A stretch of 64,000 nt of DNA from Mobula hypostoma (lineage: Eukaryota), in assembly GCF_963921235.1 (NCBI RefSeq), contig NC_086097.1, positions 7,502,001 through 7,566,000 of the forward strand, given 5' to 3'. Made by a program: the position numbers and the translations under genes. Under the pieces are notes generated by a model, which was given only the letters and a program-made list of their open reading frames with translations, did no database searches and had not been told where the DNA came from. Positions 1,233 through 63,376 of this stretch are shown piece by piece (within the stretch, counting starts at the first letter, position 1; each line of letters begins with the position of its first letter).

Positions 1233-1587
1233 TGCAGTATAAGTTAGTTAGGGCTTTATTGTCATTGCTGAGCACAGCGAGATTGCAGTGTTACTCCATT
1301 CAGTGCAAAGCAGCATGCTGGCAATTCAATTACTGTACTAAAAGCCCAATTCTAACTTTAAAGTTTCATCTGAGTTCTTTCAAATGACAGCTAAGTTACA
1401 AGTGAATTAAAAATAAGCATCTGTAAAATTAAAAGAAACAGTGGCTGCCCCATTCAAGTATTGCACATGCCTGTGTTATCAAATACAATGATTAAATATA
1501 AAATAGCATCAATAATTATGCCCATGTATTGCACTTAGAGATTGTCCATTGTGTCTATGGACTACGGGTGGGTGGGGGGGGGGGCGG

Positions 1588-1905
1588 TCATTGTTCAGTT
1601 GCACGCCAGCCCTGGGTAAAAGCTGTTTTTTTCAGTTTTGATATCTGTGTAGAGATGTTTCGGTATCTCCTGCAGGATGGTAGGAGACTAAACAGATGAT
1701 TACTGGGGTGGGATGAGTCCATCACGATGTTATGAGCCACCATAGACATTGTGAGTTGTGCATGGCTTCCATTCCTGATAGTTGTGCCCCAGTGATGCTC
1801 TGTGCAGTCCTGATCACCGGTTGAATTGCTTTCTGGTTGATCTTGTTGCAGCCCGTGTACCGTACTGTCACGCAATAGGTCAGCATGTTCTCAGTTACAC
1901 ATCAA
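1588..1905 (-). mobile_element. Rex1/Babar-like LINE fragment
   Basis: ORF 1588..1875 contains DSSHPSNHLFSLLPSCRRYRNI. Confidence 0.7.
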
Positions 1906-2449
1906 CAAAGGTTTACCTGCAGCTTTGAAAATCAATTAACTTTGAACTTTGAACCAAGAGACCAAAGAGCCTGCACTTGTTTCTGTGCTTTTTGTGCTGA
2001 ATTCTAATTTCTGTACAAGTGTCAGACCATGATGAACTGCTTCTTCTGGGGTGCGCATCATTTCGTTTACAATCCAGGCATTCAAAGGGAACTGTATAAT
2101 CAGGACTAGATACTAAATTCAAGACTGTTTAAAGTCATTTCTAGTGAATAAGTGTAAAGAAGAATGAAATGATTGTCTAAGAAGAAGGCTCATCATTACA
2201 GGGTCCAAACAGAGCTGATGGTAATTTGATTACATTAGTATGTGTGAGTCAGGCAATCGTGCTGCCTGTGGCTTGTTCTGTATTTATCACCTTAGATTGT
2301 GAGGCCAGTTCACCCATAATGCATATTTTTCTGAGTGTCAAACTGAGCACTACATTATCATTAATCAGGGGGGTGGCAGTTCAATATGGTTTCAACATTT
2401 CTCCACTTCCATTCTTTCACGTTAAACATGTTTCAGCCAGAAGTGAGTT

Positions 2450-3603
2450 TTTCTAGCGGCCATCCATTTTAATTCCTATCCCTATTCCGATTCCAACATG
2501 TTGGGCCACAATGAGGCCACTCTCAGGTTGGAGGAGCAACCTCATATTCTGTCTAGTTATCCTCCAACCTGAATATCTCTGTCCGCCAGAGAAAGCAGGA
2601 TCTCCCAGTGGCCACACATTTTAATTCCACATCCCATTCCTATTCTGATATGTCTATCCATGGCCTCCTCTACTGTAAAGATGAAGCCACACTCAGGTTG
2701 GAGGAACAACACCTTATATTCCATCTGGGTAGCCTCCAACTTGGTGGCATGAACATTGACTTCTCTAACTTCCACTAATGCCCCATCTCCCACTCGTACC
2801 CCAACCGTTATTTATTTATATACACACATTCTTTCTCTCTCTCTCCTTTTTCTCCCTCTGTCCCTCTGACTATACCCCTTGCCCATCCTCTGGGTTTTTT
2901 CCCCCTCCCTCTTTTCCTTCTCCCTGGGCCTCCTGTCCCATGATCCTCTCATATCCCTTTTGCCAATCACCTGTCCAGCTCTTGGCTCCATCCCTCCCCC
3001 TCCTGTCTTCTCCTATCATTTTGGTTCTCCCCCTCCCCCTCCCACTTTCAAATCTCTTACTAGCTCTTCCTTCAGTTAGTCCTGACGAAGGGTCTCAGCC
3101 CGAAACGTCGACTGTACCTCTTCCTAGAGATGCTGCTTGGCCTGCTGCGTTCACCAGCAACTTTGATGTGTGTTGCATGAATATTATTTTCTCCTTCCAG
3201 TAATTTTTTCCTCTTTTTTCCTTTTCTCCTCCCCTTCCATCTTCTTCTATTCCCCACGCTAGTCTCTTACCTCTTCCCTTTACCTACCTATCAACCACCC
3301 TTCCTTCTTCTCTTTCTCCTGTGGTCCACTCTCCTCTCCTATCAGACTTGTTCCTCTCCAGCCCTTTACTTCTCCTATCCACCTGGCTTCACTTATCACT
3401 TTCGAGCTAGCCTCCTTTCCCTCCTCCCACCTTTTTATTCCGGTATTTTTCCCCTTCCTTTCCAGTCTTTAAGAATGATCTCAGCCTGAAATGTCGACTA
3501 TTTATCAATTTCCATAGATGCTGCCTGACCGACTGAGTTCCTCCAGCATTTTGTGTGTGTGTTGCTCTGGATTTCCAGCATTTGCAGAATCTCTTGAGTT
3601 TAT
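2450..3603 (+). mobile_element. Penelope-like element 3' ends (GIY-YIG C-terminus plus pLTR), nested or tandem
   Basis: LRLEEQHLIFHLGSLQ..MNIDFSNF coding remnant, pyrimidine-rich pLTR and two hammerhead-motif copies. Confidence 0.8.
3077..3114 (+). ncRNA. Minimal type I hammerhead ribozyme motif in PLE pLTR
   Basis: UAGUC-CUGACGA-A-GGGU(CUCA)GCCC-GAAACGUC-GACUG: both core boxes, stem I, stem II and a GUC cleavage triplet. Confidence 0.75.
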
Positions 3604-4002
3604 GCTTCAGATTTTGCTGATTTTATTTGTTCTCTCCCGACGCATCTTTACTGATGTCATGTGTTGTCTCCTGAATATTTTCCTAACAAATTAGGAAACA
3701 GAATTTAAAAAACAAGAGAAAGGACAGAACAGGGTGGACTAAAGCGAACATCAGGGAATTCCACGTGAATTCAGTTCAGTAAAAACAAGCTTCAATTTGA
3801 AAACCCACAGACATCATGAGAATGATTAAAAGAATCAGATTCAGGCTGCTGAAAAATAAGTTTACTGCGCAAAATTTAACTGGTTGAGTGGGGTACTATT
3901 ATGACCAGGCGATGGTCTGTTTACTCATTATAAGCAATAAATCCAGTTTGCATTGATCGAACGTAAATTTATTAATAAGCACATTTTCTATTTTCATTTA
4001 TA

Positions 4003-4056
4003 CAGTACTGTGCACATATAAATAGCTAGGGCACCTAAGATTTTCGTCCAGGGCTG
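4003..4056. mobile_element. Tc1-type mini-MITE, degenerate
   Basis: ta|cagtactgtgca...ttttcgtccagggctg|ta, an inverted relative of 4412..4478. Confidence 0.5.
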
Positions 4057-4411
4057 TAGTGATTGCACTTTACTGCTGCTGTTGCAAAAAAGAAAACAAA
4101 TTTTATGACATATATGAGTGATGATAAACCTGATACCGATATGGGTCTATATTGCTGTCTGAGATTGGGAAGGGGGCAGGGAGAGGGGATTCATGGTTAG
4201 GAAAAGAGGAAGGGAGAGGGGAGGGAGCTGGAAGCACCAGAGTGACTTTGCTTGGGACGGTTGTGTCAGCACCTCCACCATCTTCCACTCCAGCACTCCC
4301 TCTCTGCCACCCGTCCCACACCCCTCCCATGCTGCTCTACCTTCGCCTTTCCCAAAATGCTTTGCTTCCGGCAAATTTACAGACATGCTCTCTCCTCCAT
4401 GTTGACAAATA

Positions 4412-4478
4412 CAGTACTATGCAAAATTCATAGACACCCTAGCTATATATATGTGCCTAAGACTTTTGCAGAGTACTG
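4412..4478. mobile_element. Tc1-type mini-MITE (67 bp)
   Basis: Inverted ends cagtactatgcaaaattcatagacac / gtgcctaagacttttgcagagtactg, with TA on the left flank. Confidence 0.65.
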
Positions 4479-4856
4479 CACAGTATATAATATATGTTGC
4501 ATATTGATATACTTAGACTTATCATTCATGTACACACAATATTAAATCATATGTATGATGTTCCATGATAAAGACAGCAGCCATACTGTGGCATTCAGTT
4601 GTGTATGCCTGACTTGGCTCTTTCATAGTTACATACGCTAAGGGCTGTAAATAAGCATATCATAAGGTCAATCAGAGGTTAGTTCCTGATGGTTCAGGAG
4701 GGATAAATTGGGAGCCGCTATGGAAGATACTTCCTCGTGCTAGATCACAAGAGGCCTATGGGGAAGTAACCGACTGCAAGGTCTATTTGATAAAAAGAGC
4801 ATAATCAAAAATGCTACATGTACAAAACCAGAAGTGCGTTTAATGCCTCCTTACAT

Positions 4857-5640
4857 ATTCACAGAAAAAGCAGCGGTCCCAACACCGACCCCTGTGGAAC
4901 TCCACTGGTAACCAGCAGCCAGCCAGAATAGTATCCCTTTATTCCCACTCTCTGTTTTCTGCCGATCAGCCAATGTTCCACCCATGCTAGTAACTCCTCT
5001 GTAATTCCATGGGCTCTATCTTGCTAAGCAGCCTCATGTGCGGCACCTTGTCAAAGGCCTTCAGAAAATCCAAGTACACCACATCTACTACATCTCCTTT
5101 GTCTACTCTGCTTGTAATCTCCTCCAAGAATTGCAGTAGGTTAGTCAGGCAGGATTTTCCTTTCAGGAAACCATGCTTGCTTTGGCCTATCTTGTCATGT
5201 GCCCACAGGTACTTGGTAATCTCATCCCTAACAATCGATTCCAACAACTTCCTAACCACTGATGTCAGGCTAACAGGTCTATAGTTTTCTTTCTGCTGCG
5301 ACCCACCCTTCTTAAATAGTGGAGTAATTTTCCAGTCATCCATTACAGTGCCAGACTCTATCAATTCTTGAAAGATCATTGTTAATGCCTCCAACAATCT
5401 CTCCAGCTGCTTTCTTCAAAACCCGAGGGTGCATTCCATCAGGTCCAGGAGATTTATCCACCCTCAGACCATTAAGCTTCCTGAGCACCTTCTCATTCGT
5501 AATTTTCACTGCACATACGTCACTTCCCTGACACTCTTGAATGCCCAGCATACTGCAGATGCCTTCCACTGTAAAGACTGATGCAAAATACGCATTCAGT
5601 TCCTTTGCCATCTCTGCGTCTCTCATTACAATGTCTCCAT
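4857..5640 (-). mobile_element. CR1 LINE, RT N-terminal region, frameshifted
   Basis: ORFs 5336..5656 (KSPGPDGMHPRVLK) and 4987..5397 (NYRPVSLTS, VYLDFLKAFDKVPH). Confidence 0.93.
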
Positions 5641-5646
5641 CAAAGA

Positions 5647-5925
5647 TGGGCACCATGGTTGTGCAGCGGTTAGAACAGCAATATTACCGCTCTGAGTTCA
5701 ATCCCAGCGTCCTCTGACAAGCTTCTCCGCAAGCCTTCTCGTAGAATATGTGTGTTTCCTCCAGGTACCCCCGGTTTCCCCCCACAGTCCAAAGAGGTAC
5801 TGGTTTTGATAGGTTAATTGGCCATTTTAATTTGTCCTGTAATAAAGCTCGGGTTAAATTGGGGGTTACTGGGTGGTGAAGCTCGAAGGGCTGGAACAGC
5901 CTATTCCGTGCTGTATCTAAAAAAA
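5647..5925 (+). mobile_element. HE1-like V-SINE
   Basis: tRNA-like head (gagttcaatccc), V-domain-like gtttcctccaggtacccccggtttcccccacagtccaaaga, and a CR1-like tail. Confidence 0.7.
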
Positions 5926-6076
5926 AGATTAAGCACATAGTGCTGATAAAGTCATAGAGTCGCAGAAAAGTACTGTGCAAATACAGGCCCTTTGGCTCAT
6001 CTGGTTCATGCCGAAACATTACATACTTTGAACTGGAAGAAGTACATTGGTTTACCTAAAATATTTCGACAGCAAT

Positions 6077-7540
6077 GAAACATAGAAACGTAGAAACATA
6101 GAAAACCTACAGCACAATACAGGCCCTTCAGCCCACAATACTTACTTTAGAAATTACCTAAGCTTACCCATAGCCCTCTATCTTTCTGAGCTCCATGTAT
6201 CTATCCAGGAGTTTCTTAAAATAGCGTATCATATCCATCACCGTCGTCGGCAGCTCATTCCACGCACTCACCAGTCTCTGTGTAAAAAACTTACCCCTGA
6301 CATCTCCTCTGTTCCTATTTCCAAGCACATAAAAACTGTACCCTCTAGTGTTAGCTATTTCAGCCTTGGGAAAAAGCCTCTGACTATCTACACGATCAAT
6401 GCCTCTCATCATCTTTTTTTTTGGTGTGCGCCTGTGTGCGTGCAAGTCTGTGCATCTGCCTCTGTGTGTGCGTGCGTGCGCGTCTGTGTGTGCGCGCGTG
6501 CGTCCGTGATGATGTCTTTTTCATGGCTTTTTACAAGGCGCAGAGCGAGAGAGAGACTGTGTGCCACACCACTCCTCACACAGACACTTTTGCAGTATTT
6601 TCCCTTTATTTTACAAGGTCGAGTTGCAATCACAACACTCAACCCAGCACGGATGGAAAGCACACTCGGGAGCTGACCTGACTGGTTTCGAACCCGGGAA
6701 CCTCCACTCCCGGGTCCGGCACCAATGTCGTTGCGCCACCTGCCAGCCTGCCTCTCATCATCTTATACAGCTCTATCAGCTCACCTCTCATCCTTCGCCA
6801 CTCCAAGGAGAAAAGTCCAAGTTCATTCAACTGATTCTCATAAGGAATACTCCCCAATCCAGGAAATATCCTTGTAAATCTCCTCTGCACCTTTTCTATA
6901 GTTTCTGCATCCTTCCTGTAGTGACGTGACCAGAACTGAGCACAGTACTTCAAGTGGGATCTGACCAGGGTTCTATACAGCTGTAACATTAGCTCTCGGC
7001 TCTTGAACTCAATCCCACGGTTGATGAAGGTCAACACCCCGCATGCCTTCTTCACCACACATTCAACCTGCGCAGCAGCTTTGAGTGTCCTATGGACTCG
7101 GATCCCTCTGATCTTTCACACTGCCAAGAGTCTTACCATTAATTCTATATTCTGTCATCATATTTGACCTACCAAAATGAACCACCTCACACTTACCTGG
7201 GCTGATCTCCATCTGCCACTTATCAGCCCTCTTTTGTATCCTTTTGATGTCCCTCTGTAAGCCCTCTGACAGCCTTCCACACTATGCACAACACCTCCAA
7301 CCGTTGTGTCATCAGTAAATTTACTAACCCATCCCTCCGCTTCCTCAACCAGGTCATTTATAGATATCACGAAGAGAAGGGGTACAAGAACAGATCCCTG
7401 AGGCACACCATTGGTCACCAAACTCCATGCAGAATATAACACGACTACAACCACTCTTTGTTTTCTGTGGGCAAGCCAATTCTGGATCCACAAAGCAAGG
7501 ATCCCATGCCTCCTTATTGTCTCAATAAGCCTTGCATGGG
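6077..7540 (-). mobile_element. CR1 LINE, RT to 3' end, interrupted by a SINE
   Basis: ORFs 7158..7493 (GVPQGSVL, KFTDD), 6639..7058 and 6164..6445; (tttctatg)n tail at 6077..6105. Confidence 0.92.
6416..6748 (-). mobile_element. tRNA-derived SINE with 16-bp TSD
   Basis: Box A-like tggcgcaacg, box B ggttcgaaacc, CA/CG-repeat and oligo-A tail; TSD tgcctctcatcatctt at 6400..6415 and 6749..6764. Confidence 0.85.
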
Positions 7541-8129
7541 GTGTGAGTGGTATGAAATTGGCTCATATTTTTCTTTCATGTTGTACAATCCCCAAAAAAT
7601 CTACATTAACATAAAAATAATTATATTTAAAAGTCACACCAGAAAGTAATGAATAATTGTGTAAGTTGTGATATAGAGAAGTGGACAACTTGTTGATACA
7701 ATTTAAACTCTGCAAGGCTATGTAAGGGAAGAGTTAATTGACTGAGCTATTCTACACAGAACAGTGTATTCCATGTGGGTTTTAGTTAATCATCAGAGTT
7801 TTGGAATGATCCACAGAACACTCAAATACAAGTGTGGTCAATTGATTTTTTCATTTTTGTTAAAGTACTGTGTGAGTCACAGCCTTGACATATGAAAGAA
7901 AACTAACTACAGATACCAGATATGAGCCTACATAGCCTTCAGGGTAGAAGAATGATCTCTCGTTACCAGTTAAAAATAAACAGTGCCTCAGGAACTAAGC
8001 AGCAGTAACAACAAAAAAATTGTCTTACATTTTAATGTTGGTTCTGGCGACAGTTCAGTGAGGAGAATAGAACAGAAGCTATAAGAACAATGAAAGGTAT
8101 CATCAAGGTTCTTCAGAGACTTACAGTAT

Positions 8130-8620
8130 ATCATCATCACCATCATCATTATGTGCTATGTTATATGACATGGGTAACCATGGTGTTTTTGGCTAACTTA
8201 TCTACCAAGGTTTGCCAATGCCTTCTTCTGGGCAGTTTCTTTGCAAGACGGGTGGCCCCCAGCCATTATCAACACTCCTCAGGACTGGACAGGACCGTCC
8301 TGAAAAAGGGTTTTGGCCTGAAACGTTGTCTGTTTACTGTTTTTCATAGATGCTGCCTAGTCTGATGAGTTCCTCCAGCATCTTGTGTGTGTTGTTCTTC
8401 AGAGATTGTAAGGCTGCAATCAGTGGTTGCATAACCAAGGCTTGTGATATCCACCAGCTGTTCATACGACCATTCTTTCCCTACACCCATGGCTTCACAT
8501 GACCCTGATCGGAGGCCTAAGCAAATACTACAACCTTGCTTAAGAGTAACCCACCTTATAGCTCTTTTGGTAGAAATGTATCTTCACCCCACCACCCAAC
8601 AGGCTTAAAATCCAGGGAAA
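8130..8620 (-). mobile_element. Short RTE-tailed retroposon (family A) with a nested PLE pLTR piece at about 8285..8395
   Basis: Matches 36900..37293 and 56608..56966; aaggca(a)tggcaaacc RTE-type tail motif and (gat)n tail. Confidence 0.65.
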
Positions 8621-16715: not shown

Positions 16716-16799
16716 TGAACTGCACCCTGGGAAATATATCTCTTTGCCCAACATCTCTAACCTAACAATCAATCAAATATCTCTGTTAATCCCATTTGT

Positions 16800-25160: not shown

Positions 25161-25336
25161 AATAATCAACTTTTTGGAATTGCTACTAGTGTTAACAACA
25201 TGAAATTACTTTTGGATTAAGTAAGCATGATCCTTACTAAAGGTTAATTGGATGCATGAAAGTGAAATTGCACTGTGTTATACTGTAGCTGTATAACTTA
25301 TCAAAATATTCTCTTCCCATGTGGAAATTAGCAGGT

Positions 25337-25665
25337 TGTAGAAACATAGAAAATAGAAAACCTACAGCACAATACAGGCCCTCCAGCCTACAAAGCTGTG
25401 CCGAACATGTCCTTACCTTAGAACTACCTAGGGTTACCCATAGCCCTCTATTTTTTCTAAACTCCATGTACCTATCCAGAAGTCTCTTAAAAGACCCTAT
25501 CATTTCCGCCTCCACCACCGCCACTGGCAGCCCTTTCCACACACTCACCACTCTCTGTGTAAAAAACTTACCCCTGACATGTCCTCTGTACCTACTTCCT
25601 AGCATCTTAAAACTGTGCCCTCTCATGCTAGCTATTTTAGTCCAGGGAAAAAGCCTCTGGCTATC
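25337..25665 (-). mobile_element. CR1 LINE, 3' end
   Basis: ORF 25237..25626 (MRGHSFK..KFFTQRVVSVW); same subfamily as 6077..6400. Confidence 0.9.
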
Positions 25666-25709
25666 AGGTTATTATGTTATCTACAGACTCTTTTGTCTAT
25701 TTTGTTAAG

Positions 25710-26493: not shown

Positions 26494-26830
26494 AGCTACA
26501 GAGAGATTGCAGATAAACAACAAGATGTGAGAACATACTGTGGTAGAATCTGTCCATGCAGACAAGAGGGTACAAGGAGGGGCTGAGGCTGAAACCGTGT
26601 GGGGCACCAAAATTTGGAGTAATCGTGGTGAAAGTGATCATACCAATCCTTACTGATTGTGGTCTGTTCGTCAGGAAGTCAAGGATCCATTTGCAGAGGA
26701 AGACATTGACAATAGCTGTTTAGATGACAGCAAGAAACAGCAAAAAGTTGTGGACACAGCTCAGTGCGTCATGGAAACCAGCTCTGTTATGTCATCGTGC
26801 TATGTACCAGAATGACTTCTCGGTCCATGG

Positions 26831-26988
26831 AACACACATCAAAGTTGCTGGTGAACGCAACAGACCAGGGAGGATCTCTAGGAAGCGTCGACTGTACCTC
26901 TTCCTAGAGATGCTGCCTGGCCTGCTGCGTTCACCAGCAACTCTGATGTGTGTTGCTTGAATTTCCAGCATCTGAAGAATTCCTCGTG
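26831..26988. mobile_element. 158-bp palindromic PLE-terminus insertion with 13-bp TSD
   Basis: 55-bp inverted arms at 26831..26885 and 26900..26954; TSD tctcggtccatgg at 26818..26830 and 26989..27001. Confidence 0.8.
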
Positions 26989-27470
26989 TCTCGGTCCATG
27001 GTCTCCTTTTGTGTCGAGATGAGGCCACCCTCAGGGTGTAGGAGCAACACCTTATATTCTGTCTGGGTAGCCTCCAACCTAATGGCATGAACATTGATTT
27101 CTCCTTCTGGTAAAAAAAAATCCCCTCCCTCTCCCCTCTTCTTCATCTATTCCCCACTCTGGCCTTTTACCTCTTCTCACCTGCCTATCACCTCCAGTGG
27201 GTCTCCTCCTCCTTTCCTTTCTCCTGTGGTCCGCTATCCTCTCCAGTCAGGTTTCTTCTTCTCCAGCCCTTTACCTTTCCCACCCACCTGCCTTCACCTA
27301 CCACCTTCCAGCTTGTCCTCCTTCCCCTCTCCCCACCCTTTTATTCTGGCATCTCCTCCCTCTTTTCTAGTCCCGATGAAGGGTCTTGGCCTGAAACGTT
27401 GACTGTTTACTCATTTCCATAAATGCTGCCTGACCTGCTGGGTTCCTCCAGCATTTTGTGGGTGTTGCTA
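26989..27470 (+). mobile_element. Penelope-like element 3' end
   Basis: EQHLIFCLGSLQPNGMNIDFS remnant, pLTR and a hammerhead-like copy at 27368..27405. Confidence 0.8.
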
Positions 27471-28039
27471 TGAAAACCAACCTCCCATCCATCGAATCTG
27501 CTGGTATTTCTCACTGCATCAGTAAAGCAGCCAGCATGATCAAAGACCACACTCAACCCAAACAGTCTCTCTTCTCTTCTCTTCTTTTTTATGACGCAGA
27601 AGATAAAAAAGCCTTAAAACACATAACTTCAGGCTCAAAGATAGCTTCAATCCTCTCCCACAGCACTATTAAATGATTTCCTAGTACAATAAGGTGAAGT
27701 TTTGACATTAGAATATGATCTTACATCTTATTGTTTACCTGCACTGCACTTTCTCTTTAGCTGTCACATTTTATTCTGCATTCCGTTATTGTTTTATCAA
27801 GTTCTACATCAATACACTGTGTAATGATTTGATCTGAATGAACAATGTGCAAGCAAAGCTTTTCGCAGTAAGCTTGAAACATGTGACAGTAATAAGATGA
27901 TTTCCAAATCCACAATGGTTTCACACTTCTCAAGCTGTCTGTGGAAGTTATGGATTTCTTGCTGCTTACTGCCCCATTCGTATCAGTCACCTTTTAGGAT
28001 CTCACAAGATGAACAAAGTAAGAAGATGCAAGTGAACTG

Positions 28040-32835: not shown

Positions 32836-32959
32836 TAATTGAACTGGCAAGCAGGCAATGGAAGAGGTTATTGGAGGAGAATTTTGTGATGGACTGCTCT
32901 GAAGACTCAAGATCTCAAAGGGGATCAGGAATCAGTCTCTGTTGTTCACCTATCTCCAC

Positions 32960-33860
32960 ATCCAGTGCATAATTCTCCACAACATCCACCATCTCCAACA
33001 GGATCCCACCACCCCAAACACGTCCTTCTTTCCACCTCATTTTCCGCTTTCTGCAGGGATTGTTCCTTATGTGACTCCCTTGTCCTCTTGTCCCTCCTCA
33101 CTGATTGCCCTCGCAGTACTTATTTTTGCAAGCTGATTGACTGCCACATTTTCCCCTACGCCTCCTCCCTCACTACAATTCAGGGCCCAAAACAGTCCTT
33201 TCCAGCGAGGCGACACTTCACCTGCAAGTCTGTTGGGGCCCTCTGCTGTAAATGGTGCTCCCAGAGTGGCCTCTTGTATATCAGTGACCTTAGATTGGGA
33301 GACTGGTTCATCGAGCACCTTTGATTCGTCCGCTAAAAAAAGTGCGATTTCCTGCTGGCCATCCATTTCGTTTCTACTTTCCATTCCCATTCCGACATGT
33401 CAAATCACGGTCTTGTCTACTGCTGTGACGAGGCCACACTCAGGTTGGAGGAACAACACATCATATTCTGTCTGAGTAGCTCCAACCTGATGGCATAAAC
33501 ATCGACGTCTCGAACTTCCATTAATTCCCCCCCCACCTTCACCATTCCCATTCTTGTTTTCTTCTCACACCTTCTCTTCTTGCCTGCCCATCACATCCCT
33601 CTGGTGCCCATCCTCCTTCCCTTTCTTTTGTGGTCTCTATCAGATTCCCCTTTCTCCTGACATTCATCTCTTCTACCAATCCACTTCTTAACTCTTTGCT
33701 TCATCCCTCTCCCTCTCCCGGTTTCACCTATCACCTACGACCTTTTACTTCTTCCTCTCCTCCCCTCACCTTCTTCCCCTTTCCTTTCCAAAATGTCAAC
33801 TGTTTATTCCCATCCATAGATGCTGCTTGACTGGTTGAGTTCCTCCAGCACATTATCTGT
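32960..33860 (+). mobile_element. Penelope-like element, GIY-YIG region plus pLTR
   Basis: ORF 32965..33324 (FSAFCRDCSLCDSLV, Cys linker, HFTCKS..GLLYI..RLGDWFIEHL). Confidence 0.8.
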
Positions 33861-35224
33861 ATTATTCTTGTATTCAAAATATTATAGTGAATTTGCAACT
33901 TGATGTATGTTCCAGAGGATGACAATGTGATTTTGGATTAACATCCCACTCTAATACATAAATCAGAAGTGAAAAATACTCATTACTGATAGGACCTGTA
34001 CAGACAGACACTATCAGTTTGGCTACAACTTCAAATTAAGTTTGTTCAGCGCTATTAAATGAAATGAAATAACATCACAAGAATTAATTCCCTTTCTAAG
34101 TGATGTTGACAACCGTTGATAGATAACAGAACAAGATTAGACTCCAAGTGATCATTGCCTTCATCATCTCGACAACATCCCTGCACAAGATAATATTCGG
34201 CACACCAGATGTAAACGTCTGCCAGTCAGAGTTTGAGAAGGCACTCTCACAATGACAAGCTACTTACATTTGACTTTCTGATGCACTAGTGGCACTGGCT
34301 GCCATCAGAAGTATCTCTGGTAACCATCTGCAACACAAAGCCAGGTTGGATTAGCCATTGTAAACCACCAACAAGTCACAATAGAAAACACATTCCAAAG
34401 AGATACACAGCCAAGGTGATGAGTTTTTGCTAGAATATTATTACTAGTCAGTGAAAATAAATATCTATACAACTTCTGAAGAGAATGCAAGAATTCTGGC
34501 TATCTCCTGTCAGAAGTCCACCCGGTCATCTGGAAAATATTGCAGCCTATTGAATTATTTTACAGACCAATAAATTATCTTTATTTTAATTTCTCTGGGG
34601 TTCTAAATTCTTTCAGTAGAGACAAAAATAAACAGGAAATGAAGTGAATTCTCAACAAGCCAGGCAGCTTCATACAGGAAGAAATAAAGTTAACATTTCA
34701 AACTGAAGTCCTTTCTTCAGAATCTCTCTGTTCCCTGTTTCAGATACTGATCAGATTTGTTTGCCTGTTGGTTTCACACCAACACACAACGACGGCACAC
34801 CTCCACCATTAATAAACCAAGTAGGCTGTTCTGCCTGCTTTAATAAGCTCTTATTATTGTATAAACGAGCTGCTGTAATGGAGATCTACACCTTGGATGT
34901 TTTTTCTCTGCTAATATGACACAGACAACAGCTGATCTGTTTGACCTGCAGTGAATTGGAGAACTAATCTATTTAACACTCTAGTTTTGTCATATCAAGA
35001 TGAAAGTATGACATTATATTGTCTAAAGTGCTCTTGACTTGATTGTCACTCAATTGAATTTATGCACTATCAGTGGAAGAAACGGAATGAGTCTCATTGA
35101 CCCTAGAAGAGAGAAGATAACAAAGGAAAACTACTCGACCATCTTCCATAGCCAATGGACTTCCCTTGAATAATTCTGTGCGTGGCCATAAACTGAGAAA
35201 TGCTTTCAATTGGGCTCCAGAGAC

Positions 35225-35770: not shown

Positions 35771-36084
35771 CAGAGCATTAGATTTATTATCAAGGTATAT
35801 ATATATATCTTGGGCCAAAATGTTGACTGTTTACCCTTTTCCATAGATGCTGTCTGGCCTGCTGAGTTCCACCAGCATTTTGTGTGTTTTGCTTGTATTT
35901 CTCTTGTTTGCGATTGGACATAATAGCATTAAGCAATTGGTCTTACACAACAGTATTTACGTAAGTCTCCAGAAAGCCAGAATACTAAACCCCACCAGAA
36001 TATATCTGAAAGTTTCTAGCAATTGAGAAATGAGTATGCTTGGCTATAACTGAGGTTCTACCAACTTAAGGTGTGAAACAATAA

Positions 36085-36741: not shown

Positions 36742-36880
36742 AACACAAACATGAGAAAATCTGAAGATGATGGAAATCCAGAGAAACACACACAAAATGC
36801 TGGAAGAACTCAGCAGATTAGGCAGCATCTATGGAAAAGAATAGTTGACGTATCGGTACCCTTCATCAGGACTATAGAAA
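36742..36880 (-). mobile_element. PLE pLTR terminus with variant hammerhead motif
   Basis: Reverse complement reads tagtc-ctgatga-agggtacc-gatacgtc-aacta...gatgctgcc...tttccatcatcttcagattttctc. Confidence 0.7.
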
Positions 36881-40414: not shown

Positions 40415-40763
40415 TAAAAATGCGAACACAAGAAAATCTGCAGATGCTGGAATTTCAAGCAACACACACGAAAGTTGCTGGTGAACACAGCAGGCAGCAT
40501 CTCTAGGAAGAGGTACAGTCGACGTTTCAGGCCGAGACCCTTCGTCAGGACTGACTGAAAGAAGAGTAGTAAGAGATTTGAAAGTGGGAGGGGGAGGGGG
40601 AGATCCAAAATGATAGGAGAAGACAGGAGGCGGAGGAATGGAGCCAAGAGCTGGACAGTTGATTGGCAAAAGGGATATGAGAGGATCATGGGACAGGAGG
40701 CCTCTTCCTAGAGATGCTGCCTGGCCTGCTGGCATTCACCAGAAACCTTTGTATGTGTTGTTC
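40415..40763 (-). mobile_element. PLE pLTR-only insertion with inverted end and 11-bp TSD
   Basis: Near-identical to the reverse complement of about 2925..3175; TSD gtaaagatgtt at 40404..40414 and 40764..40774. Confidence 0.85.
40516..40553 (-). ncRNA. Minimal type I hammerhead ribozyme motif in PLE pLTR
   Basis: CAGUC-CUGACGA-AGGGUCUCGGCCU-GAAACGUC-GACUG, with a perfect 5-bp stem I. Confidence 0.78.
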
Positions 40764-46425: not shown

Positions 46426-46907
46426 AGTTATTACCCCTCAACCATCAGGCCATTGAACCAAAAGGAATAACTTTGATAAACTTCACTTGCCTGTCACTGA
46501 AATGGTCCCACAAACTATGGACTCACTTTCAAGGACTCTTCATCTCTTGCTCTTGATATTGATTGCTTACGTATTTGTTATTATTATTTCTTTCTTTTTT
46601 GTATTTGAAGACCTTTGTCTTTTGCATACTGGTTGAACACCCAAGTTGGTACAGTCTTTCAATAGTTCTATTATGGTTATTTTTCTGTTAGTCAGGTTAA
46701 ATGCTTTATTGTAATTTAACTATAAATATATATATAAAACATGTATATCCATACAATATATATGGAAACAAGACAACTTTTCTCTGAACCAGGGTGTAAT
46801 GCACAGTAGTACACAGAACACACATAACATACGATAACCTATGAAGGTAAGGATCAAATCTACAAATGAATCACACATAAATAACAAATTGAAGTGCACT
46901 AATATTA

Positions 46908-47346
46908 AGCAACACACACAAAAGGCGGGAGGAACTTAGCAGGCCAGGCAGCATCTATGGAAAACACTATAGTCGATGTTTCGGGCCCAGACCCTTCATT
47001 AGGACAGGAGAAAAAGAAGATGAGGACTCGGAGTTAAAAGGTGGGAGAGGGGAGGAACAAACACAAGGTGATGGGTAAAACTGGAAGGGGGAGAGGAGAA
47101 GTAAAGAGCTGGGAAGTTGATTGGTGAAAGACATACAGGGCTGGAGAAGGGGGAGTCTGATAGCAGAGGACAGAAGGACATGAAAGAAAGAAAAGGGGGA
47201 GGAGAACCAGGGAAGGCAATGGGCAGGAAAGGATAGAAGGTGAGAGAGAGAAAATGGAATGGGGAATGGTGAAGGTGGTATAGTCCAGGTAGCTGTGAGA
47301 GTCAGTGGATTTATAAAAGACATCCGCAGATAAACTATCTCCAGAA
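46908..47346 (-). mobile_element. Penelope-like element, inverted and internally deleted part
   Basis: DVFYKSTDSHSYLDYT joined to a pLTR with a hammerhead-like copy at 46970..47006. Confidence 0.78.
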
Positions 47347-47348
47347 CC

Positions 47349-48597
47349 CATTGACTCTCACTGCTAACTGGACTGTAACTCTTCCTACTATGTTACTTGT
47401 AAAAATGCCATCCACTACTCTCAATTCCTCCGTCTCTGGCGTATCTGTTCTCAGAATGAGATTTTCCATTTCAGAAGGAAGGAGATGTCCTTCTTCTTCA
47501 AAGGAAGGTGCTTCCCTTCCTCCGCCCTTCTCCACATCTCTTCCGTATCACACACGTCTGCCCTCACCCCATTCTCCCGCCACACCACCAGGAATAGAGG
47601 TCCTCTTGCCCTCACCTACCAGCCTACCAGTCTCCATATTCAGCAAATAATCCTCCGTAACTTCTGCCATCTCCTACAGGATCCCACCGGCAAGCACATC
47701 TTTTCCTCCACCCCACTTTCTGCATTTCGCAGGGATCACTCTCTGCGTGACTCCGTTGTCCATTCATCTCTCCCCACTGATCTCCCTCCTGGCACTTACA
47801 CTTGCAAGCGGAACAAGTGCTACTTGCCCATACACTTCCTCCCTCATGGCCTTTCAGGGCCCAAACAGTCCTTCCAGGTGAGGTAACACTTCGCCTATGA
47901 GTCTGTTGGGGTCATCTGCTGTATTTGGTGCCCCCGGTGTGGCCTGCTGTATATCGGTAAGACCCGATGTAGATTGGGAATCAGCTTCACTGAGCACCTA
48001 CGCTCTATCCACCATAAAAGTCGTGATCTCCCAGTGGCCATTGGTTTTATTTCCATTTCCCATTCCCATTCCGAAATGTCAGTCCATGGCCTCCTCCACT
48101 GTCATGATGAGGCCACTCACAGGATGGAAGGACAACACCAGTCTTCCACCTGAGTAGCCTCCAGCCTGATGGCATGAACATCGATTTTACAAACTTCCAG
48201 GTAATGCCCCCCTTCACCATTTCCCATTCCCCTTTCCCTCTCTCTCCTTATCCCCTTACATGCCCATCTCCTCCCCCTTTTCTTTCTTCCATGGCCTTCT
48301 GTCTTCTGCTATCAGATTTCCCCTCTTCAGCCCTGTATCCCTCTCACCTATCAACTTCCCAGCTCTTTACTTCACCCCTCCCCCTTCCCGGTTTCACTTA
48401 CCACCTTGAGTTTCTTCCTCCCCTCCCCCCATCTTCTAACTCTGACTCCTCATTCTTTCCTCCCGTCCCGATGAAGGGTCTCATCCCGAAACATCAACCA
48501 TACTCTTTTCCAAAGATGCTGCCTGGCCTGCTGAGTTCCTCCAGCATTTTGTGTGTGTTGCTTGGATTTCCGGCATCTGCAGATTCTCTCATGTTTT
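47349..48597 (+). mobile_element. Penelope-like element: RT thumb, Cys linker, GIY-YIG, pLTR
   Basis: ORF 47485..47886 (LSAFRRDHSLRDSVVHS, GTYTCKRNKC), then VICCIWCPRCGLLYIGKTRCRLG..EHL; frameshifted. Confidence 0.85.
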
Positions 48598-51600: not shown

Positions 51601-51658
51601 GACAGAGCAGACTTGATGGGCTGAATGACCTACTCCTGTTCTTATGTCTTATGGTCTT
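48605..51658 (+). mobile_element. CR1 LINE, ORF2 (APE plus RT) to 3' tail, decayed
   Basis: ORFs 48754 (DIVGITESW), 49125, 49371, 49913, 50305 (IYLDFQKA) and 50653 (VPQGSVLGP, FVDE); cttatgtcttatggtct tail. Confidence 0.95.
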
Positions 51659-51659
51659 A

Positions 51660-57961: not shown

Positions 57962-58370
57962 TTTTATTTATTTATTTAGAGATACAGCACAGAATAGGCC
58001 CTTCCGACCCTTTGAGCTGCGCAGTCCAAGCAACCCCCAACAACCCCAATGTAACTAACCTAATCACGGGACCACTTACAATGACCTATTATTCCTGAAG
58101 AAGGGTGTCGGCCCAAAACGTCGACTGTTTATTCATTTCTGTAGGTGCTGCCGGATCTGCTGATCCTCCCCCAGTTGCTATGGATTCTGCAGGCTTTCTC
58201 GAATTAATGATCAATCAGGTATACTTTTGGATTGTGGTAGGAAACAGGAGCACCTGGAGAAGACTCATGCATTCCATGGCAAGATGTACAGAGACTCCTT
58301 ACAGAGGAGGCCAGGACTGAACTCTGAACTCTGACACCCAGAGCAGTAATGGAGTCACGCTAACTGCTAA
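57962..58370 (-). mobile_element. V-SINE with a nested PLE pLTR piece (about 58090..58200)
   Basis: Minus-strand gagttcagagttcagtcc head and CR1-type tail; insert reads cctgaagaagggtgtcggcccaaaacgtcgactg. Confidence 0.6.
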
Positions 58371-58884: not shown

Positions 58885-59718
58885 ATAATCACAAGAGGTT
58901 CTGTAGATGCTGGAAGTCCAGAGGAACACACACAAAATGCTGGAGGACCAAAACAAAAGAAAATCTGCAGTTGCTGGAAATCAAAGTAATACACACAAAA
59001 TTCTGGAGGAACTCAGATGGCCAGACAGCATCTATGTAAGAGAGTGAACAGTCGACGTTTCGTGCCAAGACCCTTCATCAGGATGCAATTCTGGTGGAAA
59101 TCCATCTGCAACAAGTAGGATTTCCCGATGTCTCACTATGTTTATTCCAATCCCCATTCCCATTCCGACATGTCAGTCGGTGGCCTCTTCCACTGCCGTG
59201 ATGAGCCTACTCTCAGGTTGGAGCAACTCCTCATATTCTGTCTGGCTTTCCTCCAACCTGATGGCAAGAACATAAATTTCCTTAACCTCCAGTAATTTTT
59301 CCCTTCCCCCTTCAGACATCTTCCATTCTTCACTCTGGCTTCCTTCTTGCCCCCTTCTCTTCTCCTCACCTGCCTATCACTCCCCCCAATGCCCATCCTC
59401 TTTCACTTTCTCCCATTGTGCACTCTCCTCTCCTATTAGATTTCTTCTTCTTCAACCCTTTACCACTGAACACCTTCCAGCCTCTCACATCATCGTCCCC
59501 TCCCCCACCTCCCAGGCCTCACCCATCACCTTTGAGCATGTCCTCCTTCACCTCCCCAAACTTTCTTATGATGGCTTCTTCCCCCTTCCTTGCCAATCTC
59601 AATGAAAGGCCTTGGACCAAAACATTGAGTTTTTACTCCTTTCAATCTTGACATGAAAAGTCGCCTTTCCATGGATGCTGTCTGACCTGTTGAGTTCATC
59701 CAGCATTTTGTGTGTTTA
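58885..59718. mobile_element. Penelope-like element: inverted pLTR (58885..59085, -) plus GIY-YIG end and pLTR (59100..59718, +)
   Basis: pLTR homology at both ends; hammerhead core at 59049..59084 (-); degenerate copy at about 59595..59630. Confidence 0.75.
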
Positions 59719-60996
59719 ACATCTGGCACAATGTTTGTCAAGACAGTAGTAAAATGCACTCAGCATTGAGATACAAAAGCCATGACCATACAGTACCAAG
59801 GTTGGATGCTAGATGTTCTGAATGATGTTGCGTATAATACTTTTAGCAGTAAGTACCTGCTAAATAGCTCAAATGTGTTTAAACGCCAGATTTTATTTGT
59901 TGACCATTTTAACTGAACTCTGTTTAACAGCAGTATTCTCCAGAGTTACATACAGATTTCTGAATTGTAATAGTTTTATCATAATTTTTTCTAATATTTC
60001 CTTTAGTTTTATACAGTAATCAAAATTTATGTATGTGTATATTGTATCATTTTCACCCATTTAAAATAATATGCTAATGAAATATGAAAGTTTTCTTTTT
60101 AATTTTGGAAGCAGCCACCCTGGAGCTATACCGAGACTGCTGCAGTGTTTGTGTGTGTGTGTCATAACAGCAATTGTAACTGCAGTTAATTAAACAGTGC
60201 ATGAAGCCCTCTGGTATTCCCTTAAAATATTTTAACAATGAGGATTTTATTTAAACATAAATTGAGATTTAGCATGTTTTCCCTCTGATTCTAACTACAG
60301 CATTTACATTTTCATAGTTCTCTCTCTCTCTCTTTTCTGTATCTCCTTTCAAATTTCGTTTTTCCCACTAATTGGTGTTCTCTTCCTAGACTAGCAATCT
60401 CATTTTCCATTTCTTGGCTCTGTGCTTTGTCACCTTTCACTTAGAGAGCAGAGTGGCCCAGCACAATGGAAGTCTTCTATAATACATACGATGATGATGA
60501 ATAGTCAACTATCTCTAAAGTTCCTCAAAACAAATGAGTTCTTGACCTTAATTATTTCCTGATGGAGAGACATCGAGTTCAACCAATGTATATTACATTG
60601 GTCTTCTGGAGATTAATTTAGAGCGATACTCACTCTAAGTAATCTTCATGCACCTGCCCTAGTACAAATACAAAGGTTTGTTAGTTCTGGACCATTTTGT
60701 ATGAGAGTGGAAAAGGAATGAAAAAAAACAATAAAATCACTTCCAGGCCTGAAGACAGCCAGATCAGAAGATAAAATATTTCAAAAGATTAAAAGTTACA
60801 TCACTTTACAATCACTTCAGACAATTAAAGGGCTTAGTAAACACAGTAAAAAGAAATTATGGTAAAGATTGAGTTTAGTAAATGAAATTCAAAACCTCCA
60901 AGCTTTGTGAAAACAGGTCCATGTTCTGTAACTCAATACCGTGTTCAGACTGAAGCAAGTTTAGAATTACTGTTGCTATAAAGCTATGTATTGGTG

Positions 60997-62921: not shown

Positions 62922-63045
62922 CACAAACATGAGAAAATCTGCAGATGCTGGAAATTATGAAGGTTCTCGGCCCAGAACGTCGACTGTTTACTCTTTTCCA
63001 TAGATGCTGCCTGGCCTGCTGAGTTCCCCCAACGTTTTGTGTGTA
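62922..63045. mobile_element. Short PLE-terminus insertion with inverted end
   Basis: Minus pLTR end joined to a plus pLTR piece; imperfect flanking repeat tctctccagaaat / tctctctaaaaat. Confidence 0.6.
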
Positions 63046-63376
63046 TCTCTCTAAAAATACTGTCTAACCTACTGTACACCCAGCATTCCATGGATAATTA
63101 ATAGGCCAGATTCTGCTCCCATATGGTCTTATTTCTTGTTTTTATTTCATATTACCAACAACAAAGTACATATTTATTTAAAGATGCAGCACATAGCAGG
63201 CCCTTTTATCCCAACAAACCACACCACCCAGCAATCCACCTGTTTTAAACCTGGCCTAGTCGTAGGCCAATTTCCAGTGACCAATTACCAACTAATCAGT
63301 AAATCATTTCCCTTTTCTGTATACACTTGTCTTAAATGCATCCCTGCTTATTCCTTATTTATTTGCAGCTGTGTAC

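What the first reader, a model, noticed from the sequence alone, without database searches (positions are those of the whole stretch)
3077..3114. Minimal type I hammerhead ribozyme in Penelope-like terminal repeats, about 12 copies in 64 kb
Seen: UAGUC/GACUG (stem I), CUGACGA, stem II GGGU-CUCA-GCCC, then GAAACGUC, which predicts cleavage after C3109. Stem III is reduced to the palindrome ACGU with no loop. Related copies lie at about 3463, 8297, 27368, 36842(-), 40516(-), 46970(-), 48465, 58091, 59049(-), 59595 and 62957. Across copies the variable core position changes freely (CUGA-C/U/A-GA), as the hammerhead consensus allows. Known: PLE pLTRs carry minimal type I hammerheads with palindromic helix III that are thought to act as dimers. 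Inference: this is a very high-copy family of that kind in a cartilaginous fish. I cannot tell whether this family has already been described.
Basis: partly seen in the sequence, partly recalled or inferred. Interest (0 to 1): 0.8.

Follow-up and report, generated by a model that had tools for sequence, protein, structure and literature searches.

The report
Penelope retroelement minimal hammerhead motif
The sequence is a genuine minimal hammerhead-ribozyme motif in the tail of a very abundant, recently active Penelope-like jumping gene, a pairing that is already known, and whether it actually cuts RNA here is untested.

Summary
The motif at 3077-3114 is there exactly as described, and all 11 listed related copies exist. 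It is not chance: pattern matches in shuffled windows were 0, and the genome holds 53,299 matches against 0 for the reversed control.

It lies in the 3' untranslated region (the pLTR) of a Penelope-like element (PLE). That element has a reverse transcriptase, a C-x4-C-x2-C linker and a GIY-YIG endonuclease, which makes it Neptune-type. The motif sits about 300 nt after the stop codon, with its cleavage site 72 nt before the usual 3' end.

Three of the four published hallmarks of PLE minimal hammerheads are met: an extra nucleotide after A9, G10.1-C11.1, and palindromic ACGU. Covariation, the fourth, is absent.

The motif is the best-conserved segment between subfamilies: 36 of 38 positions, against 48 of 67 downstream.

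Activity is unproven, and several results speak against strong cleavage:
- No compensatory changes were found, and no Rfam hammerhead model matches.
- The monomer folds into an inactive rod.
- 73% of intact genomic copies carry U at 11.1.
- Every inserted copy keeps the motif uncut.

In the window only 2 of 12 copies keep an intact motif, and the copy at 3077 is a dead, truncated insertion.

Verdict: a new member of a known kind, of low to moderate interest.

The parts
3077..3114 (+). Minimal type I hammerhead motif. Helix I is 3077-3081 with 3110-3114. CUGACGA is 3082-3088. The extra A is 3089. Helix II is 3090-3093 with 3098-3101. GAA is 3102-3104. The ACGU palindrome is 3105-3108. C17 is 3109, with the predicted cut after it.
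2577..3181 (+). 5'-truncated copy of the young PLE subfamily. It comprises the end of the RT-EN ORF (stop codon 2776-2778), the C/T-rich 3' UTR spacer 2779-3076, the hammerhead, and then a 67-nt block ending at the usual 3' end ...GTGTGTTGCATGAA.
   Evidence: L001 is window 1540-4690
3190..3574 (+). Adjacent older copy: a C/T-rich spacer, a decayed motif at 3463-3500 (TTTAAGA in place of CUGANGA), and the 3' block.
40448..40702 (-). Second young copy, 93% identical to 2927-3181. Its motif at 40516-40553 is intact but has U at 11.1. A short inverted arm lies at 40704-40767.
47368..48572 (+). Older PLE copy: a decayed RT/GIY-YIG ORF end (to about 48204), a C/T-rich spacer, a motif at 48463-48500 (CCGA, broken), and the 3' block.
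46900..47392 (-). Inverted partner copy lying head-to-head with the previous part. Its motif at 46970-47007 is broken (CUAA).
58975..59086 (-). Short copy that starts at the motif. The core boxes are intact, but helices I and II are broken.
8293..8401 (+). Short decayed copy that starts at the motif (CUGAAAA).
27366..27479 (+). Decayed copy (CCGAUGA, GUU).
36774..36876 (-). Short copy with a deletion in helix II and the GAAA box.
58088..58198 (+). Short copy with G12 changed to A.
59592..59720 (+). Strongly decayed copy.
62949..63057 (+). Copy whose 5' half of the motif is replaced by an inverted 'tail' piece.
32890..33868 (+). Older PLE copy: a GIY-YIG ORF piece, a C/T-rich spacer and the 3' block. 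The 5' two-thirds of the motif are deleted.
35808..35898 (+). 5'-truncated tail copy inserted at a (TA)n run inside a CR1-like LINE 3' end. This explains why the tail seemed to belong to a LINE.
26825..26967 (.). Head-to-head inverted pair of short tail pieces. One arm starts 3 nt before the cleavage site and the other about 15 nt after it.

Best explanation
The 38-nt sequence is the minimal hammerhead (min-HHR) module of a Neptune-type Penelope-like retroelement. The element's unit is about 3.5 kb.

Shown:
- The motif lies in sense orientation in the 3' UTR, about 300 nt after the ORF stop. Its cleavage site is 72 nt before the position where most inserted copies end.
- Because new insertions are longer than one unit, the same segment also lies upstream of the ORF as a 520-bp pLTR.
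- The copy at 3077 is a dead, 5'-truncated insertion with no intact partner nearby, so it is inert at this locus.

Inferred mechanism, at about 55% for this part:
- In element transcripts the motif alone folds into an inactive rod, in which GACG of the core pairs with CGUC at the cut site.
- It can cut after C17 only when two copies pair through the ACGU palindrome into a double hammerhead, as in transcripts that span two pLTRs or tandem copies. It probably also needs help from the element's own protein.
- Its role would be to trim multimeric or read-through transcripts.
- Cleavage must be weak or conditional. The RNA that is reverse-transcribed still carries the motif uncut.
For: - Sequence and chance. 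The genome holds 26,643 + 26,656 matches to CTGAYGAAGGGTCTCRGCCYGAAACGTCGACTG, against 0 + 0 for the reversed control.
- PLE identity: the ORF end and RT/EN translation. GIY-YIG scores 24.7 bits, above its cut-off. The linker CKRNKCYTC has the form CX2-5CxxC, which PMC8557442 (passages) assigns to Neptune and Nematis.
- Architecture: L039 shows pLTR 3081-3600 matching 6594-7112, motifs 3,512 bp apart, and an open frame of 1,043 aa.
- Insertion features: head-to-head inverted partners and a 34-nt 'tail' on some copies, as described for PLEs in PMC8557442 and PMC11167929 (passages).
- Hallmarks listed in PMC4209133: an extra nucleotide between A9 and 10.1, G10.1-C11.1 in the window copy, palindromic 15.2-16.2, and a helix I of 4-5 bp. 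All are seen.
- Conservation between subfamilies: the majority base of 16 older copies equals the young-family base at 36 of 38 motif positions. The two exceptions are position 7, the free core position, and 11.1. The figures are 48 of 67 in the downstream block and 8 of 20 upstream. Fisher p is 0.005 and 9e-6.
- Recent activity: all 40 scored copies of the 5' region are at least 99% identical over 300 bp, and open frames reach 1,043 aa.
- Of 30 full-length 5' ends, 27 carry an upstream partial unit, and 19 of these include a second complete motif in direct orientation.
Against: - Rfam: no family reaches its gathering score anywhere in the window. No hammerhead model appears even at E up to 10 on 3000-3200.
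- Covariation: 0 of 9 helix pairs show a compensatory change in 35 distinct sequences, and the covariation score is below all 500 shuffles.
- Folding: the monomer MFE of -14.1 kcal/mol is no better than shuffles (z = -1.47), and it sequesters the core. In the nearest-neighbour model the double-hammerhead fold scores -17.9 (C11.1) or -12.9 (U11.1). Two inactive monomers score -28.2 or -24.4.
- The main lineage lacks a hallmark: 39,061 of 53,299 intact genomic motifs (73%) have U at 11.1, which replaces the G10.1-C11.1 pair with G-U.
- Every inserted copy keeps the motif joined to its 3' 72 nt, so templates were not cut there.
- No 5' end lies at the cleavage site in 0 of 30 full-length loci. 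By my reading only about 2 of 61 junction rows do.
- In Anolis, hammerhead mutants did not affect insertion in vitro (PMC11167929, passages).
- No RNA data could be obtained.
Confidence: 0.85

Rival explanations
1. The conserved 38-mer works mainly as a structured RNA handle, the rod-like hairpin, for the element's RT-EN protein near the reverse-transcription start. Its hammerhead chemistry would be vestigial or dispensable. It has a hammerhead by descent but does not work by self-cleavage.
For: - The stable inactive rod is the predicted fold.
- The most successful lineage carries U11.1.
- The helices and even the loop are conserved as sequence, with no compensatory change.
- The motif lies next to the conserved 3' block where copies end.
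- All copies retain the motif uncut.
- The Anolis PLE hammerhead needed protein to cut and was not needed for insertion in vitro (PMC11167929).
- PMC8557442 notes that PLE clades without hammerheads proliferate well.
Against: - All 13 invariant core nucleotides are kept in both subfamily lineages, while the one free core position (7) is the one that differs. This is what selection for catalysis predicts.
- G-U at 10.1-11.1 still pairs.
- The nearest-neighbour model ignores the tertiary contacts of the hammerhead core.
Confidence: 0.3
2. The motif-bearing tail is itself a small non-autonomous element of the non-LTR retrozyme type. It would be cut out of tandem transcripts, circularised, and copied by the PLE enzyme.
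For: - Short tandem arrays centred on the motif exist, with units of 36, 54, 61, 61 and 106 nt in 4 to 13 copies.
- One contig in a public run joins 3182 back to 3079.
- Many short copies start within a few nt of the motif's 5' edge (by eye).
- A 2026 preprint derives animal retrozymes from PLE pLTRs and reports them in its one chondrichthyan (10.64898/2026.07.22.740005; abstract and Results read).
Against: - Arrays are rare: 109 pattern matches, many of them from about a dozen loci, against 53,299 single motifs.
- A control 13-mer from the 3' block at the same spacing gives 61 matches, including arrays without any hammerhead.
- The 30 best matches to the window copy all continue upstream into PLE sequence or are plain 5' truncations.
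- No circular RNA evidence was available.
Confidence: 0.1
3. The resemblance is fortuitous. On this view the repeat is the 3' tail of a CR1-type LINE or its SINE, which merely contains CUGANGA and GAAAC by chance.
For: One copy (35808-35898) sits right after a CR1-like ORF end. CR1-like fragments are common in the window.
Against: - That copy is a 5'-truncated piece inserted at a (TA)n run.
- Wherever copies extend upstream they enter a PLE RT/GIY-YIG ORF.
- Both boxes, both helices, the extra nucleotide and the palindrome co-occur. They are the best-conserved part of the pLTR.
Confidence: 0.02

Closest known systems
Minimal hammerheads (min-HHR) in the pLTRs of metazoan Penelope-like elements (Cervera and De la Pena 2014, PMC4209133; main text read)
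   Same: - Type I topology with no helix III hairpin.
- Palindromic 15.2-16.2.
- An unpaired nucleotide between A9 and 10.1.
- A short helix I of 4-5 bp.
- Location in both pLTRs.
- Mostly single dispersed copies from truncated elements, with frequent close pairs on opposite strands.
   Different: - Helix II is only 4 bp here. The paper describes 7-8 bp in Schistosoma and 6 bp in Drosophila.
- There is one nearly uniform sequence family rather than many covarying families.
- 73% of intact copies have G-U rather than G-C at 10.1-11.1.
- The copy number of 53,299 is above the roughly 9,000 (Xenopus) and 4,000 (coelacanth) quoted there.
Hammerhead of the Anolis Poseidon element PAc (PMC11167929; passages read)
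   Same: Both are vertebrate PLE hammerheads in the pLTR. Copies end at an internal reverse-transcription start, and some carry a further 'tail'. The same 3'-end pattern is seen here.
   Different: PAc belongs to the Penelope/Poseidon clade, and its ORF starts inside the hammerhead. Here the motif is about 140 nt upstream of the first ATG, and the element has the Neptune-type linker. The protein-assisted cleavage shown for PAc is untested here.
Non-LTR retrozymes of animals (PMC7229834, passages; bioRxiv 10.64898/2026.07.22.740005, abstract and Results)
   Same: Both have type I hammerheads in short tandem repeats related to PLE pLTRs. A few such arrays, with units of 36-106 nt, occur in this genome.
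   Different: Retrozymes carry canonical hammerheads with loop-loop contacts, occur mainly as arrays, and are shown to give circular RNAs. Here the overwhelming majority are single PLE tails, and no RNA evidence exists.
Rfam Hammerhead_1 (RF00163) and the other Rfam hammerhead models
   Same: The CUGANGA and GAAA core boxes, and cleavage after a GUH triplet.
   Different: No match at the gathering score or at E up to 10. I infer that this is because the models expect a helix III hairpin, which this motif lacks.

Membership tests
PLE minimal hammerhead (min-HHR) | Core boxes C3-A9 (CUGANGA) and G12-A14 (GAA) followed by A15.1 | tested here: met
   Window 3082-3088 and 3102-3105. Both are kept in the majority of older copies.
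PLE minimal hammerhead (min-HHR) | Cleavage triplet U16.1-H17, followed by the helix I 3' strand complementary to the strand before C3 | tested here: met
   GUC at 3107-3109. UAGUC with GACUG gives 5 pairs including one G-U.
PLE minimal hammerhead (min-HHR) | No helix III hairpin, with positions 15.1-16.1 forming a palindrome that can pair between two copies | tested here: met
   ACGU at 3105-3108. The column majority is unchanged in older copies.
PLE minimal hammerhead (min-HHR) | One unpaired nucleotide between A9 and 10.1 | tested here: met
   A3089 is invariant in 52 of 52 aligned copies.
PLE minimal hammerhead (min-HHR) | Conserved G10.1-C11.1 pair | tested here: inconclusive
   The pair is G-C in the window copy. 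It is G-U in 39,061 of 53,299 intact genomic motifs. Among 35 distinct aligned sequences it is GC in 17, GU in 14 and unpaired in 4.
PLE minimal hammerhead (min-HHR) | Consensus families with covariation or compensatory changes in helices I and II | tested here: not met
   0 of 9 pairs show a change on both sides. A descriptor scan of 340,661 held bases found 78 motifs, all of this one family. The sample is one young family in one genome, so the test has little power.
PLE minimal hammerhead (min-HHR) | Location in the terminal repeats (pLTRs) of a PLE | tested here: met
   L039 has motifs in both 520-bp repeats flanking the 1,043-aa frame.
PLE minimal hammerhead (min-HHR) | Self-cleavage, low and dimer-dependent in the published cases | not testable with these tools
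   Only thermodynamic predictions were possible. No RNA run was available.
Penelope-like element, Neptune-type | Single ORF with RT followed by a C-terminal GIY-YIG endonuclease | tested here: met
   GIY-YIG scores 24.7 bits, above its cut-off, on L004:839-1234. On the 1,043-aa frame, RVT_1 scores 24.8 bits (below the 29.6 cut-off) and GIY-YIG 18.6 (below 22.6). A YIDD motif is visible in the translation.
Penelope-like element, Neptune-type | CX2-5CxxC zinc-finger-like linker before GIY-YIG, which is absent in Penelope/Poseidon | tested here: met
   CKRNKCYTC / CKRNKCYIC appears in the translations. The criterion comes from PMC8557442 passages. No phylogeny was made.
Penelope-like element, Neptune-type | Partial tandem (pLTR), adjacent inverted 5'-truncated copies, and a 30-40 bp tail | tested here: met
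   The tail TTTCCAGCATCTGCAGAATTCC... is on L005, L022 and L039.
Rfam hammerhead families | Score at or above the family's gathering threshold | tested here: not met
   0 matches in the window. No hammerhead model appears at E up to 10 in 3000-3200.
Non-LTR retrozyme | [quoted passage not shown] | tested here: inconclusive
   A few short arrays exist elsewhere in the genome. The window copy is not in one, and RNA was not testable.

The most novel reading that the evidence does not exclude
In this genome the hammerhead module itself, and not only the whole PLE, may be a unit of amplification. Three observations suggest this:
- Independent micro-arrays have units of 36, 54, 61, 61 and 106 nt, each holding one motif.
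- The 5' ends of short copies cluster within a few nt of the helix I edge.
- The dominant lineage carries an attenuated G10.1-U11.1 core.

Together these would mean that tiny hammerhead-bearing RNAs, perhaps circles, are repeatedly copied by the PLE enzyme. They would be the smallest retrozyme-like replicators seen in a vertebrate.
Probability: 0.1. Interest if true: 0.55.

Novelty: new member of a known kind. Interest (0 to 1): 0.22.

Why it matters
The result adds a very large, recently active example to the known link between hammerhead ribozymes and Penelope-like elements. There are about 53,000 intact motifs and about 2,000 candidate full-length 5' ends.

The genome offers natural material for an open question in that field: whether PLE hammerheads cut in vivo, and why.
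- Two near-identical lineages differ only at position 7 and at the 10.1-11.1 pair.
- There are natural direct dimers.
- There are short tandem arrays.

For annotating this window the finding is ordinary. The copies are dead retroelement tails.

Tried and rejected
- Rfam at gathering score on the whole window and at E up to 10 on 3000-3200: no hammerhead model matched.
- RNA evidence: no RNA holder was listed. The four runs laid were Logan contigs of uncertain kind, so they say nothing about transcript ends or expression. They only showed that the repeat occurs in four coded organisms and that depth peaks at 3080-3175.
- Covariation on 52 copies: none found.
- Search for other min-HHR families with my own descriptor in the 340,661 bases held: only this family. 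The first version of that script wrongly rejected 12-nt helix II hairpins and was replaced.
- First attempt to score a double hammerhead with each helix I kept within one molecule. This gave an unevaluable crossing structure. It was replaced by the nested form with swapped helix I strands.
- LINE/SINE-tail reading: rejected.
- L003 as reference for copy boundaries misled me, because its upstream part is inverted. This was redone with other loci.
- Supplement search of PMC4209133 for shark names: 0 occurrences in 2 files, and file 1 was not searched.
- The supplements of the 2026 preprint, which name its chondrichthyan species, are closed and may bear on whether this family is already catalogued.
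- Earlier-findings look-ups by place and by sequence returned nothing.
- The host taxon was not checked.
Full report
**Observation.** Window 3077-3114 reads TAGTC-CTGACGA-A-GGGT-CTCA-GCCC-GAA-ACGT-C-GACTG. In hammerhead numbering:
- Helix I: UAGUC pairs with GACUG, giving four Watson-Crick pairs and a terminal U-G.
- Core: C3-A9, with C at the free position 7.
- One unpaired A follows A9.
- Helix II: 4 bp closed by a tetraloop, starting with G10.1-C11.1.
- G12-A14 comes next.
- A15.1-C-G-U16.1 forms the palindrome ACGU with no loop.
- C17 is base 3109, followed by the helix I 3' strand.

The motif is not a chance match. CTGANGAN{8,20}GAAACGTC occurs 3 times in the window, against 0.00 in 100 shuffles. 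A 20-mer with up to 3 mismatches occurs 8 times against 0.

A profile of the repeat finds 21 pieces in the window. Most copies are decayed:
- Only 3077(+) and 40516-40553(-) keep all boxes and both helices.
- 59049-59086(-) keeps the boxes only.
- The rest have core-breaking substitutions, largely CpG transitions, or deletions.

**What the repeat is.** A self-comparison showed a unit of about 255-600 bp whose last ~105 bp are shared by all copies. The window's own genome (3.48 Gb, 200 contigs) gave 622 first-look candidates for 3040-3190. The 40 that were scored are 95-100% identical.

In the 30 loci fetched, copies end sharply at ...GTGTGTTGC(A/T)TGAA, 72 nt after the predicted cut. Their 5' ends are variable. 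Upstream they run into an ORF ending ...LQPDGMNIDFSNFR*.

The ORF translation shows an RT with a YIDD motif, a C-x4-C-x2-C linker and a GIY-YIG domain. Pfam scores for GIY-YIG are 24.7 bits (cut-off 22.6) on one copy and 18.6 on another. RVT_1 scores 24.8 bits, below its cut-off. PMC8557442 (passages) gives the CX2-5CxxC linker as the mark of the Neptune and Nematis clades, absent from Penelope/Poseidon. I therefore call the element Neptune-type, without a phylogeny.

A copy with a 1,043-aa open frame (L039, read on its minus strand) shows the classical layout:
- A 520-bp repeat, 96% identical between its two copies, lies on both sides of the ORF.
- Each repeat holds the ORF's last ~90 bp, a ~290-nt C/T-rich spacer, the hammerhead, the 67-nt block and a 34-nt 'tail'.
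- The two motifs are 3,512 bp apart.

Head-to-head inverted partners are frequent. I first suspected a CR1-like LINE tail, because one copy follows a CR1-like ORF end at 35808-35898. That reading fails: the piece is a short truncated insertion at a (TA)n run.

**Abundance and age.**
- The degenerate 33-mer CTGAYGAAGGGTCTCRGCCYGAAACGTCGACTG occurs 26,643 + 26,656 times in the genome. The reversed control occurs 0 times.
- An RT fragment gave 182,431 first-look candidates, of which 149 were scored.
- The first 300 bp of the unit gave 2,226 candidates, and all 40 scored are at least 99% identical.

The family was therefore active very recently. For comparison, the 2014 paper quotes about 9,000 min-HHRs in Xenopus and 4,000 in coelacanth. 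The axolotl holds up to 120,000 retrozyme copies (PMC7229834, passages).

**Comparison with the known kind.** Cervera and De la Pena (PMC4209133, main text read) define min-HHRs of PLEs and list four features that were not imposed by their search:

| Feature | Result here |
|---|---|
| Families with covariation | Not found |
| A conserved G10.1-C11.1 pair | Met in the window copy only |
| Palindromic 15.2-16.2 | Met |

On the third feature, the exact 33-mer with T at 11.1 and all other CpGs intact accounts for 39,061 of the 53,299 matches, or 73%. The full-length copies with open frames carry it too. The master of the main burst therefore had G-U there, and this is not random decay.

On the first feature, 0 of 9 helix pairs show a change on both sides. 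A descriptor scan of the 340,661 bases I held found 78 motifs, all of this family. This test has little power, because the sample is one young family in one genome.

**Is the motif under selection?** Inserted copies decay freely, so the useful comparison is between subfamily lineages. The majority base of 16 older copies equals the young-family base at:
- 36 of 38 motif positions;
- 48 of 67 positions in the downstream block;
- 8 of 20 positions upstream.

Fisher p is 0.005 and 9e-6. The two motif positions that differ are position 7, the one core position free to vary, and 11.1. In pairwise terms, old copies match the young pLTR at 71-89% in the motif, 66-73% in the block and about 47-50% in the spacer. 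That criterion is not met, so the motif passes the test.

Conservation of the sequence cannot tell a ribozyme from a protein-binding hairpin.

**How it probably works.**

Shown:
- The motif is in sense orientation in the 3' UTR and pLTR.
- Every copy carries it still joined to the 72 nt downstream. The RNA that was reverse-transcribed was therefore uncut there, or had been religated.
- Most copies end at one internal position and some carry a further 34-nt tail. This matches the internal reverse-transcription start described for the Anolis element (PMC11167929, passages).
- 27 of 30 full-length 5' ends carry a partial upstream unit, starting anywhere from 1.4 units to a few nt upstream. 19 of them include a second complete motif. 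None starts at the cleavage site.

Predicted:
- The monomer folds into a rod in which GACG of the core pairs with CGUC at the cut site.
- I derived a nested double-hammerhead topology with swapped helix I strands. In the nearest-neighbour model it is about 10 kcal/mol worse than two inactive monomers, and worse still with U11.1. That model ignores tertiary contacts of the core.

Inferred:
- The motif is at best a weak, conditional ribozyme. It would cut only when two copies pair, as in transcripts spanning two pLTRs or tandem copies, and probably only with the element's protein. This agrees with the low in vitro activity reported in 2014 and the protein-assisted cleavage of the Anolis element.
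- Its likely role is trimming of multimeric or read-through transcripts. I give this about 55%.
- The main rival, at about 30%, is that the rod now serves chiefly as a protein handle and catalysis is dispensable.

The copy at 3077 is a truncated insertion. Its neighbour at 3463 has a broken core, so it is inert at this locus.

**Seen on the way.**

Short tandem arrays built around the motif exist elsewhere in the genome. There are 109 matches to the motif's first 13 nt repeated at 93-123 nt (control 0). TRF gives these units:

| Unit | Copies | Locus |
|---|---|---|
| 61 nt | 6.7 | L051 |
| 61 nt | 6.6 | L052 |
| 36 nt | 13.4 | L053 |
| 54 nt | 4.2 | L054 |
| 106 nt | 4.0 | L046 |

A control 13-mer from the 3' block gives 61 matches at the same spacing. 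These are mostly two-copy junctions, plus two arrays without a hammerhead. The arrays are therefore rare and only weakly motif-specific.

In those 61 rows, by my reading, about 16 second copies start 1-3 nt inside the motif's 5' edge. About 7 start 2-3 nt before it. The end of the first copy varies. Short old copies in the window (8295, 36874, 58090, 59086) start at the same place. This suggests a discrete RNA 5' end or an RT stop at the helix I edge.

The sequence there, a long pyrimidine tract followed by CAG and TAG, looks like a 3' splice site or an initiator. The 2014 paper notes that the Drosophila Penelope intron ends at the 5' end of helix I. I did not test this further.

**Novelty.** The kind is established. 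Reviews state that all available PLEs carry such motifs (PMC6155905, passages; PMC8557442). A 2026 preprint reports PLEs and retrozymes in its one chondrichthyan, but its supplements are closed.

Searches of the held library found no description of this family. The term sets were 'Penelope-like' + 'hammerhead ribozyme', the same plus 'shark', and 'Penelope' + 'retrotransposon' + 'elasmobranch'. Earlier notes of this scan on shark-like genomes reached the same reading. They are not independent evidence.

**Verdict.** A correct catch and a new member of a known kind. The only unusual features are its scale, its uniformity and the G-U variant.

Noticed in passing
genome-wide; L039 and L040 copies: 73% of intact motifs (39,061 of 53,299) carry T at position 11.1 while all other CpGs are intact. 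The most prolific lineage, including copies with open 1,040-1,043-aa frames, therefore has G-U instead of the hallmark G10.1-C11.1 pair.
   Followed up: partly
L051 468-876, L052 479-882, L053 508-988, L054 476-701, L046 1376-1802: Independent short tandem arrays whose unit is little more than the hammerhead. Units are 61, 61, 36, 54 and 106 nt, in 4-13 copies. Between 2 of 6 and 3 of 3 motifs per array keep all boxes.
   Followed up: partly
G000:C64:2291275-2294533 (listing): A satellite of more than 3 kb with a 14-nt unit, CTGATGAAGGGTCT. This is the 5' half of the motif turned into a minisatellite.
   Followed up: no
61 rows; window 8295, 36874, 58090, 59086; L044 540/541; L058, L062: The 5' ends of short copies and of inverted arms cluster within a few nt of the motif's 5' edge. 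This is just after a long C/T tract ending in CAG, which looks like a 3' splice site or initiator. Some junctions carry an extra G.
   Followed up: partly
L039 (minus strand) 5753-6361, likewise L002, L004, L012, L040, L041: A second frame of about 200 aa (IFLSLSLETAYPLMST...) stays open inside the RT-EN region in all six copies examined. This may only reflect the youth of the copies.
   Followed up: no
window 4987-5415(-), 6639-7562(-), 16045-16761(-), 19883-20371(-), 25237-25668(-), 35192-35923(+), 61549-62010(+): Fragments of CR1-like LINE ORFs (RT and C-terminal domain), identified only by eye from the translations.
   Followed up: no
window 51569-52261(-): A 230-aa open frame resembling the C-terminal part of an L2-type LINE ORF, identified by eye only.
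   Followed up: no
G000:C75:43435270-43435376 (listing): One copy's tail is followed directly by GGGTTAGGGTTAACCCTAACC, a telomere-like repeat.
   Followed up: no
window 3105-3115: GTCGAC across the cut site is itself a 6-nt palindrome. It could pair two copies in an inactive register that competes with the ACGU pairing.
   Followed up: no
window 37445-37595: A 57-nt tandem repeat with 2.8 copies, unrelated to the finding.
   Followed up: no
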